DNA from: Escherichia coli | GTDB taxonomy: Bacteria; Pseudomonadota; Gammaproteobacteria; Enterobacterales; Enterobacteriaceae | Assembly: GCF_003334255.1 (NCBI RefSeq) | Contig: NZ_QOWU01000210.1 | Direction: 5' to 3' (one strand) | DNA: 616 nucleotides | Shown: positions 1 to 616 of the stretch, piece by piece | How the letters are laid out: every line of letters begins with the position of its first letter | How positions within the stretch are numbered: position 1 is the first letter of the stretch | Made by a program: the position numbers and the translations under genes | Notes under the pieces: generated by a model | Databases searched by the model: none | What the model was told of the DNA's origin: nothing | The model's input: the letters and a program-made list of their open reading frames with translations, nothing else

Positions 1-616
1 CCTGAATCAGACGGCCCAATTCATCATATTCCCGGCGCAATTCCAGCCCGTCAGGCCCGGTGGCTGACGTTAACTGGTTGTGGTGGTTATAGTAAAACGC
101 CGATGCCCTGCCATCCGGCGTGGTTATGCGCGTGATGAGGCCCGTCACCACATCCGGGCTGTACTCTGTTGTCCTGCCTGCGGCATCCGTCTGTGCCCTG
201 AGCCTGCCCACGGCGTCAAACTGACTCTGCGTGACGCTGCCGTCCGCGTGTTCCTTTTTCACCACCCGCTTCAGCCCGGCTTCGCCCTGCGTGTGCAGCA
301 CTTCACGGCGGTCCAGGCTGTCGGTGATGGTGATGCGGTCTTTCTCATACTGATACGTGTAGCTTAAGCCTGCCGGGTTTAGCTGTTCTGTCACCCGCCC
401 GTCGCTGTCGTAACGGTAACGGATTTCCGGCCGGCCCGTGTGACGGTGCGCCACCATCCGGCCCCGGTATTTATCATCGTAAGTAAAGCTGCGCACCTGT
501 TTGCCACTACGGTCATACACCACCGCCAGTTCGCCGCGTGGCGTCCAGCCATAGCGCACCAGCGGCGCGGCAGGTAAATTCTCCGGGTATTCCGGGTCGT
601 GCGTCAGCCACACGGC
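1..616 (-). CDS. rhsD: Rhs-family core protein (YD-repeat polymorphic toxin scaffold), internal fragment, partial at both ends; RhsD/E-like rather than RhsA/B/C-like by recollection only
   Basis: Reverse-complement translation (first full codon at 616..614, last at 4..2) gives 205 codons with no stop: AVWLTHDPEYPENLPAAPLVRYGWTPRGELAVVYDRSGKQVRSFTYDDKYRGRMVAHRHTGRPEIRYRYDSDGRVTEQLNPAGLSYTYQYEKDRITITDSLDRREVLHTQGEAGLKRVVKKEHADGSVTQSQFDAVGRLRAQTDAAGRTTEYSPDVVTGLITRITTPDGRASAFYYNHHNQLTSATGPDGLELRREYDELGRLIQ. It contains at least eight YD-repeat-like units (e.g. VYDRSGKQV, RYRYDSDGRV, REYDELGRL), the hallmark of Rhs/YD-repeat proteins. The peptide matches my recollection of enterobacterial (E. coli-type) Rhs core sequence. 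The symbol rhsD is tentative: I cannot run an alignment, so the paralog could equally be another rhs copy. Family-level confidence is high, paralog-level confidence is low. Confidence 0.9.

What the first reader, a model, noticed from the sequence alone, without database searches (positions are those of the whole stretch)
1..616. Paralog identity and multi-copy recombination substrate
Rhs cores usually occur in several near-identical copies per genome and were first identified as rearrangement hot spots driving unequal recombination. From memory, this peptide resembles the RhsD/E-type core more than the RhsA/B/C-type, about three-quarters identical to the latter, but I cannot verify this. A 616-bp core fragment may map to several loci, which matters for assembly collapse and for deciding which locus it belongs to.
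Basis: inference. Interest (0 to 1): 0.35.

Follow-up and report, generated by a model that had tools for sequence, protein, structure and literature searches.

The report
Ordinary RhsA/B-type Rhs core fragment

Summary
The minus strand is open across the whole window (205 codons) and encodes YD/RHS repeats. The window is 100% identical to both rhsA and rhsB of E. coli K-12 (CDS nt 877-1492, aa 293-497). It is 96.1% identical to rhsC and 75.5% to rhsD. The rhsE pseudogene lacks this part of the core. The "three-quarters identical" figure is correct, but it describes the distance to RhsD, not to RhsA/B/C.

The multi-copy claim holds. Of 5,426 complete E. coli genomes, 3,885 carry near-identical copies (median 3, maximum 7). 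The median rises to 6 when D/E-type cores are counted. In K-12 the window lies inside a 1,811-bp tract where rhsA and rhsB are exactly identical. In other strains the same exact sequence sits at the ybfA-rhsC locus, inside a mosaic core. Sequence alone therefore cannot assign the window to a locus.

rhsA-rhsB unequal crossover is the founding, published example of an Rhs rearrangement. Public records also show contigs that break or scramble inside this core.

Nothing else was found in the window: no Rfam RNA family, no Chi site, no terminator, and no conserved antisense gene. Everything here is already known, so interest is low.

The parts
2..616 (-). Partial coding sequence: 205 codons, identical to residues 293-497 of E. 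coli K-12 RhsA and RhsB (CDS nt 877-1491). Base 1 is the first base of codon 498.
   Evidence: Open frame. 100% blastn match to the rhsA and rhsB loci. blastp 205/205 to RhsA and RhsB at aa 293-497. dN/dS 0.235 vs rhsC and 0.231 vs rhsD.
317..412 (-). RHS/YD repeat (window peptide aa 69-100; contains YRYDSDGR)
   Evidence: Pfam PF05593 i-E 6.1e-06; motif scan
104..220 (-). RHS/YD repeat (peptide aa 133-171)
   Evidence: Pfam PF05593 i-E 8.9e-08
47..145 (-). RHS/YD repeat (peptide aa 158-190; contains FYYNHHNQ); overlaps its neighbours because the repeats are read in a sliding register
   Evidence: Pfam PF05593 i-E 3.6e-06; motif scan
5..91 (-). RHS/YD repeat (peptide aa 176-204; contains REYDELGRLI)
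   Evidence: Pfam PF05593 i-E 4.4e-06
18..539 (.). Span holding the 24 single-base positions that separate this sequence from K-12 rhsC (+ strand 18, 38, 40, 78, 125, 158, 164, 212, 279, 284, 299, 313, 341, 362, 421, 431, 501, 503-506, 509, 522, 539). No position in the window separates K-12 rhsA from rhsB.
   Evidence: Ungapped comparison; rhsA/rhsB differences lie only at CDS nt 18-81, 1893 and from 3108 on

Best explanation
The window is an internal segment of the conserved, G+C-rich core of an E. coli Rhs gene of subfamily I (the RhsA-B-C-F group, Jackson's clade I), read on the minus strand. It encodes the first well-formed YD repeats of the beta-sheet shell. In solved relatives that shell encloses a variable C-terminal toxin, which is cut off by the aspartyl-protease motif at the end of the core. 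At the DNA level the window is part of a 3.7-kb dispersed repeat. In K-12 it lies in an 1,811-bp stretch that is base-for-base identical in rhsA and rhsB. These two genes are direct repeats whose starts are 143 kb apart, so RecA-dependent unequal crossover between them gives the classic ~139-kb tandem duplication. Exchange of core segments between copies also produces mosaic cores. Shown here: the identity, copy number, mosaicism and coding constraint. Taken from the literature: the crossover and the shell function. Inferred: that the window's own source gene is intact and multi-copy.
For: Minus-strand open frame of 205 codons. Four significant RHS_repeat domains. 100% identity to K-12 rhsA and rhsB, 96.1% to rhsC, 75.5% to rhsD. 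Protein identity 100/100/95.6/73.5%. Full-length K-12 RhsA/B/C/D all pass the NCBIfam RHS_core equivalog NF041261 (2,644-2,788 bits, cut-off 2,000). Pfam layout of RhsA: DUF6531 at aa 46-123, RHS repeats from aa 318 to 981, PF03527 at aa 1143-1179. DPXG-X18-DPXG at aa 1221-1246 of RhsA/B/C. The closest solved relative is the Tse5 shell: E 2.7e-30 for the window and 6.9e-128 for RhsA, with aa 286-916 aligned. Shell and encapsulation function are described in PMC10684867. GC is 61.2% in the window and 61.9% in the core, against 37-40% in the tips. The exact rhsA=rhsB tract spans CDS nt 82-1892. Both genes are on the + strand at 3,619,192 and 3,762,183. Published sources: recA-dependent rhsA/rhsB unequal crossover, and the subfamilies rhsABCF / rhsDE / rhsGH (PMC2935791); 139-kb rhsB-rhsA amplification in five evolved lines (PMC4340650). 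Population counts. Mosaic RhsC allele: 7 runs over 93 informative sites, whereas the minimum in 200,000 permutations was 24.
Against: The source genome and the flanks of the window are unknown, so intactness and copy number in the source are inferred from the population. The lowest count among matching genomes is 1 place. The delivery route of these E. coli proteins is not shown: no vgrG, PAAR or Eag gene lies within about 2 kb upstream at the K-12 loci, where the neighbours are nikR, yibF and ybfA. The direction of the segment exchange (which allele is the recombinant, and whether the donor was in the same genome) is not resolved.
Confidence: 0.96

Rival explanations
1. One reading: the fragment belongs to an RhsD/E-type core and is about 75% identical to RhsA/B/C.
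For: Only the size of the gap between subfamilies is right (73.5% aa, 75.5% nt).
Against: 100% identity to rhsA and rhsB and 96.1% to rhsC, against 75.5% to rhsD. The rhsE pseudogene covers only core aa ~726 onward and has no counterpart of the window.
Confidence: 0.01
2. In its source genome the fragment is single-copy, so there is no mapping or recombination issue.
For: Some matching genomes have only 1 place, and 1,525 of 5,426 genomes have none at all.
Against: The median is 3 near-identical places per matching genome. All 40 listed records with a 100% match have 2-3 places.
Confidence: 0.06
3. The window comes from a dissociated or orphan core fragment, or from a disrupted rhs pseudogene, and not from an intact gene.
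For: Rhs loci carry downstream partial cores (ybfO, yibJ, 'RHS repeat-associated core domain' pseudogenes). Strain 11899A has a broken core that includes this segment.
Against: The annotated orphan fragments lack the N-terminus and hold only the 3' part of the core (annotation notes), whereas the window is nt 877-1492 of about 3,700. The frame is intact over all 205 codons.
Confidence: 0.05
4. A separate feature on the + strand (the 95-aa antisense ORF at 80-367, an sRNA or a regulatory site) is the real content of the window.
For: An ORF at 80..367 on the + strand and one weak promoter-like match at 64-93.
Against: No Rfam match at E<=1 and no terminator. In the equivalent rhsD segment all three antisense frames contain stops (1, 8 and 7). 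Long antisense ORFs are expected in a 61% GC gene with 73% GC3. Substitutions follow the minus-strand codon structure, with 14 of 24 at third positions.
Confidence: 0.02

Closest known systems
E. coli K-12 rhsA (b3593) and rhsB (b3482) core
   Same: Identical over all 616 bases (CDS nt 877-1492, aa 293-497). Same frame, same GC-rich composition.
   Different: Nothing within the window. The source locus cannot be told apart from these two, and in other strains not from a mosaic rhsC either.
E. coli K-12 rhsC (b0700) core
   Same: Same subfamily; collinear without gaps; 96.1% nt and 95.6% aa identity.
   Different: 24 substitutions changing 9 amino acids. However, the RhsC allele WP_062914703.1 in strains M217, 51008369SK1 and 219 carries the window's exact sequence at the ybfA-rhsC locus.
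E. coli K-12 rhsD (b0497) / rhsE (b1456), the RhsD-E subfamily
   Same: Homologous Rhs core with the same repeat architecture. RhsD passes the same NCBIfam equivalog.
   Different: Only 75.5% nt and 73.5% aa identity for rhsD. The rhsE pseudogene lacks this part of the core.
Tse5 of Pseudomonas aeruginosa (PDB 8cp6) and other solved T6SS Rhs shells (7q97, 8qjd, 7pq5)
   Same: YD-repeat shell. RhsA aa 286-916 aligns to the Tse5 shell chain at residues 189-829 (E 6.9e-128), and the window peptide alone scores E 2.7e-30. The shell encloses the cleaved C-terminal toxin (PMC10684867).
   Different: A distant relative. The N-terminal regions and toxins differ. T6SS linkage is not evident at the K-12 loci.

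Membership tests
Rhs element core protein (Hill's Rhs family; NCBIfam NF041261 RHS_core) | Array of YD/RHS repeats (Pfam PF05593) in one long open frame | tested here: met
   Four significant and two weak PF05593 hits in the 205-aa peptide; no stop in the frame
Rhs element core protein (Hill's Rhs family; NCBIfam NF041261 RHS_core) | G+C-rich core (about 62%) contrasting with an A+T-rich C-terminal tip | tested here: met
   Window 61.2% GC. K-12 cores 61.9%, tips 37-40%, upstream flanks 53-56%. The tip itself lies outside the window.
Rhs element core protein (Hill's Rhs family; NCBIfam NF041261 RHS_core) | Whole-protein score above the curated equivalog cut-off, and a DPXG-X18-DPXG motif closing the core | not testable with these tools
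   These lie outside the window and the source flanks are not available. Both are met by the K-12 genes that contain the exact window: 2,647 and 2,644 bits against a cut-off of 2,000, and the motif at aa 1221-1246.
Rhs subfamily I (RhsA-B-C-F; Wang, Zhao and Hill 1998 as cited in PMC2935791; Jackson clade I) | Core DNA within a few percent of K-12 rhsA/rhsB/rhsC | tested here: met
   100%, 100% and 96.1%
Rhs subfamily RhsD-E | Core DNA within a few percent of K-12 rhsD/rhsE | tested here: not met
   75.5% to rhsD; no counterpart in the rhsE pseudogene
Recombination substrate for the rhsA-rhsB duplication (Lin, Capage and Hill 1984) | Long, perfectly matched direct repeats flanking the duplicated interval | tested here: met
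   In K-12 there is 1,811 bp of exact identity around the window and 23 differences in 3,690 nt overall. Both genes are on the + strand with 138.8 kb between them. The 139-kb amplification is reported in PMC4340650. The crossover itself was not observed here.
T6SS-delivered Rhs effector | Genetic linkage to vgrG, PAAR or an Eag chaperone | tested here: not met
   At the K-12 loci the upstream neighbours are nikR, yibF and ybfA. Jackson et al. also note that vgr linkage 'is not true in E. coli'. Only about 2-6 kb of flank was inspected.

The most novel reading that the evidence does not exclude
Segments of the core, including this window, may be exchanged between the rhsA, rhsB and rhsC positions more often than the published view allows. 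Jackson et al. [quoted passage not shown] Here the ybfA-locus cores of three strain backgrounds show three different mosaic patterns over the window region, and one mosaic RhsC allele is spread over three continents. If such exchange is recurrent, it would keep kilobase-long perfect homology between loci and make 'which paralog' ill-defined for any core segment.
Probability: 0.45. Interest if true: 0.25.

Novelty: already known. Interest (0 to 1): 0.1.

Why it matters
The value is practical, not conceptual. Short reads or fragments from this part of the core cannot be placed among rhsA, rhsB and some rhsC alleles. A read must span more than 1.8 kb to reach a site that discriminates the copies in K-12, and more than about 4 kb to anchor in a unique flank. 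Variant calls, coverage-based copy-number calls and assemblies at rhs loci therefore need care. Gene names given by annotation pipelines (rhsA/B/C) do not identify the chromosomal position. The biology (Rhs shell protein, rhsA-rhsB duplication) is textbook.

Tried and rejected
The following led nowhere.

- Rfam scan of both strands at E<=1: no match.
- Promoter and terminator scan: one weak promoter-like site, no terminator.
- Chi site GCTGGTGG: no exact site. There are three one-mismatch sites, which 11 of 200 shuffles reach.
- Internal DNA repeats: only short, chance-level pairs.
- Antisense 95-aa ORF: not conserved in rhsD.
- Phage collection: only three unannotated fragments of 1.6-3.3 kb.
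- Plasmid collection: 17 records, 16 of them typed non-mobilizable. The two I opened are chromosomal fragments.
- CP088628.1 (10.2 kb, circular) as one of the excised rhs circles proposed by Jackson et al.: rejected. It includes the unique selA/yibF flank and has 37 gap openings against K-12, so it is a noisy chromosomal contig.
- Wang et al. 1998 (PMC107404) is not held in the library, so the subfamily scheme is cited through PMC2935791.
- I did not locate the rhsA and rhsB loci of strain M217, so whether the donor of its A/B-type tract lies in the same genome is open.

Full report
**What is in the window**

Translating all six frames shows one frame, minus strand frame 1, that is open from end to end (205 codons). 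Every other frame has stops. The peptide contains YD-type motifs (YRYDSDGR, FYYNHHNQ, REYDELGRLI). It gives four significant Pfam RHS_repeat matches, with i-E values from 9e-08 to 6e-06, plus two weak ones.

Substitutions relative to rhsC fall mostly on third codon positions (14 of 24). dN/dS in this frame is 0.235 against rhsC and 0.231 against rhsD. So the minus-strand frame is the constrained coding frame. G+C is 61.2%, and 72.7% at third positions.

**Paralog identity**

I fetched the five rhs loci of E. coli K-12 MG1655 and aligned the window to them.

| K-12 gene | Result for the window |
|---|---|
| rhsA | 100% nt identity, CDS nt 877-1492 |
| rhsB | 100% nt identity, same CDS positions |
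| rhsC | 96.1% nt identity (24 mismatches, no gaps) |
| rhsD | 75.5% nt identity |
| rhsE | no match |

At protein level the identities are 100, 100, 95.6 and 73.5% for RhsA, B, C and D. The rhsE pseudogene corresponds only to core residues from about 726 onward, so it has no counterpart of the window.

Jackson et al. 2009, citing Wang, Zhao and Hill 1998, divide E. coli Rhs elements into the subfamilies rhsABCF, rhsDE and rhsGH (PMC2935791). The window therefore belongs to the ABCF subfamily. Its "three-quarters identical" is the correct distance between the two subfamilies, but the window sits on the other side of that gap.

**Copy number**

Against 5,426 complete E. coli genomes, megablast finds 12,116 places in 3,885 genomes. 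Per matching genome the median is 3 and the maximum 7. The best place is at least 99% identical in 986 records and 95-99% identical in 2,813. All 40 listed records with a 100% match have 2 or 3 places.

With blastn, which also reaches D/E-type cores, there are 20,823 places in 3,901 genomes, with a median of 6 and a maximum of 9. About 28% of genomes (1,525) have no match at all. The statement that Rhs cores usually occur in several near-identical copies is therefore correct for most E. coli, but not all.

**Which locus**

In K-12, rhsA and rhsB differ at only 23 positions in the first 3,690 nt. These lie at nt 18-81 (four positions), at nt 1893 (one) and from nt 3108 on (eighteen). The window sits in an exact-identity tract of 1,811 bp, CDS nt 82-1892. 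Homology begins at the ATG, and the upstream DNA is unrelated. So nothing in the window, or within 600-900 bp on either side, separates rhsA from rhsB.

Across strains the same exact 616 bases occur at three positions:
- the yibF-rhsA position (K-12, ECCHD184, STECUZB006);
- the nikR-rhsB position (K-12);
- the ybfA-rhsC position (M217, 51008369SK1, strain 219).

These copies come with different C-terminal tips. Pipeline gene names do not track position: a ybfA-locus gene is named rhsB in two records.

**Mosaic cores**

I scored 93 sites where K-12 rhsA and rhsB agree with each other but differ from rhsC. At these sites the M217 ybfA-locus core is:
- C-type at nt 60-724 (7 sites);
- A/B-type at nt 954-2337 (63 of 65 sites);
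- C-type at nt 2400-3678 (20 of 21 sites).

Its tip is C-type (503 of 504 positions). This pattern has 7 runs. The minimum in 200,000 permutations was 24.

The same protein accession is annotated in strains from Myanmar, Zurich and Boston. This is one inherited allele, not three separate events. A third ybfA-locus core (the fragment in L010) is mostly A/B-type, with short C-type patches inside the window region.

Divergence between K-12 rhsA and rhsC is itself uneven. 67 of the 103 differences fall in nt 900-2400. So at least one exchange of a core segment covering the window has occurred. I cannot say which allele is the recombinant, or whether the donor was a paralog in the same genome or an allele imported from another strain.

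[quoted passage not shown] They also noted that several positions have almost identical cores. The mosaics seen here are a modest qualification of that view, not a new phenomenon.

**Recombination substrate**

rhsB (3,619,192-3,623,427) and rhsA (3,762,183-3,766,316) are both on the + strand. Their starts are 142,991 bp apart, and 138.8 kb lies between them.

The name Rhs comes from the recA-dependent unequal crossover between these two genes, which duplicates glyS (Lin, Capage and Hill 1984, as described in PMC2935791). A 139-kb rhsB-rhsA amplification arose in five lines of one evolution experiment and was attributed to the 3.7-kb homology (PMC4340650). The window is part of that homology.

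It has no special recombination signal of its own: there is no exact Chi site. The crossover was not observed here. What is shown is that the substrate has the required geometry and perfect homology.

**Protein role**

Full-length K-12 RhsA, B, C and D all pass the NCBIfam RHS_core equivalog. In RhsA:
- DUF6531 lies at aa 46-123;
- RHS repeats run from aa 318 to about 981;
- the PF03527 RHS domain is at aa 1143-1179;
- the DPXG-X18-DPXG motif is at aa 1221-1246.

The window (aa 293-497) therefore covers the start of the repeat array.

The closest solved relative is the shell of P. aeruginosa Tse5. The window alone scores E 2.7e-30. Full-length RhsA scores E 6.9e-128, with aa 286-916 aligned to chain residues 189-829.

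In Tse5 and the other solved Rhs proteins the YD repeats form a spiralling beta-sheet cocoon. The cocoon holds the autoproteolytically released C-terminal toxin until delivery (PMC10684867). By homology the window encodes part of that wall.

How the E. coli clade I proteins are delivered is not established by anything here. No vgrG, PAAR or chaperone gene adjoins the K-12 loci, and Jackson et al. say the same.

**Assembly consequences seen in public records**

- A 5,191-bp linear "plasmid" of Klebsiella oxytoca FDAARGOS_1334 is an E. coli kdpA-kdpF-ybfA-rhs fragment that stops 2,771 nt into the core.
- A 10,245-bp "circular plasmid" of E. coli C17EC0098 is a gap-ridden chromosomal contig that joins rhsA-locus and rhsC-locus sequence.
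- Strain 11899A has a scrambled core at the ybfA locus. One breakpoint, core nt 1287 (window + strand 206/205), is used twice. One junction falls exactly on the rhs ATG. None of the junctions has microhomology.

Junctions at repeat edges suggest assembly-graph artefacts, though a real rearrangement in 11899A is not excluded.

**Other content**

No Rfam family matches the window and there is no terminator. Only one weak promoter-like site and chance-level short repeats were found. The 95-aa antisense ORF is not conserved in rhsD.

**Verdict**

This is an ordinary, already-described sequence: an RhsA/B-type core fragment. The multi-copy and recombination context is confirmed. The D/E assignment is refuted. 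Locus assignment is impossible from the window alone.

Noticed in passing
L007 5157-9244 (NZ_CP130447.1, E. coli 11899A_LBHALD): The rhs core at the ybfA locus is scrambled. It reads core nt 1-561, a gap of about 29 nt, 591-1287, then 1158-2703, then 1-1287, then directly the pdeA/tRNA-Ala/yfeC region. Breakpoint nt 1287 is used twice, one junction falls exactly on the ATG, and there is no microhomology. It is either a misassembly at repeat edges or a complex rearrangement.
   Followed up: partly
L010 1-5191 (NZ_CP069926.1, 'Klebsiella oxytoca plasmid unnamed17'): This linear 5.2-kb 'plasmid' is an E. coli chromosomal fragment (kdpA-kdpF-ybfA-rhs) that ends 2,771 nt into the rhs core. It is probably a contaminant or unplaced repeat-edge contig. 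The ybfA-locus gene is named rhsB there.
   Followed up: partly
L011 1-10245 (CP088628.1, E. coli C17EC0098 'plasmid'): This circular 10.2-kb 'plasmid' consists of the selA/yibF flank, an rhs core and rhsC-locus downstream sequence. It is 95.8% identical to K-12 with 37 gap openings, and its ORFs are broken. It is a noisy chromosomal contig, not an excised rhs circle.
   Followed up: yes
L006 5125-9318; L012 and L013 3125-7318: One mosaic RhsC allele (WP_062914703.1), with an A/B-type tract at core nt ~954-2337 inside a C-type gene, is shared by strains from Myanmar (human), Zurich (dog) and Boston (blood).
   Followed up: partly
E. coli genome collection: 1,525 of 5,426 complete E. coli genomes have no match to this core segment even at blastn sensitivity. 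NZ_AP023206.1, a 404-kb replicon of strain TUM18781, has three places, the listed one at about 73% identity.
   Followed up: no
phage records OR845342.1, OR844800.1, OR844789.1: Three unannotated 'Escherichia phage' records of 1.6-3.3 kb contain rhs core sequence at 95.6-99.7% identity. They look like host DNA fragments and not phage genes.
   Followed up: no
L002/L001 CDS nt 3108-3690 (K-12 rhsA vs rhsB): 18 of the 23 rhsA/rhsB core differences are packed into the last 583 nt of the core. At these sites rhsC agrees sometimes with A and sometimes with B, which points to further small exchanges near the core-tip junction.
   Followed up: partly
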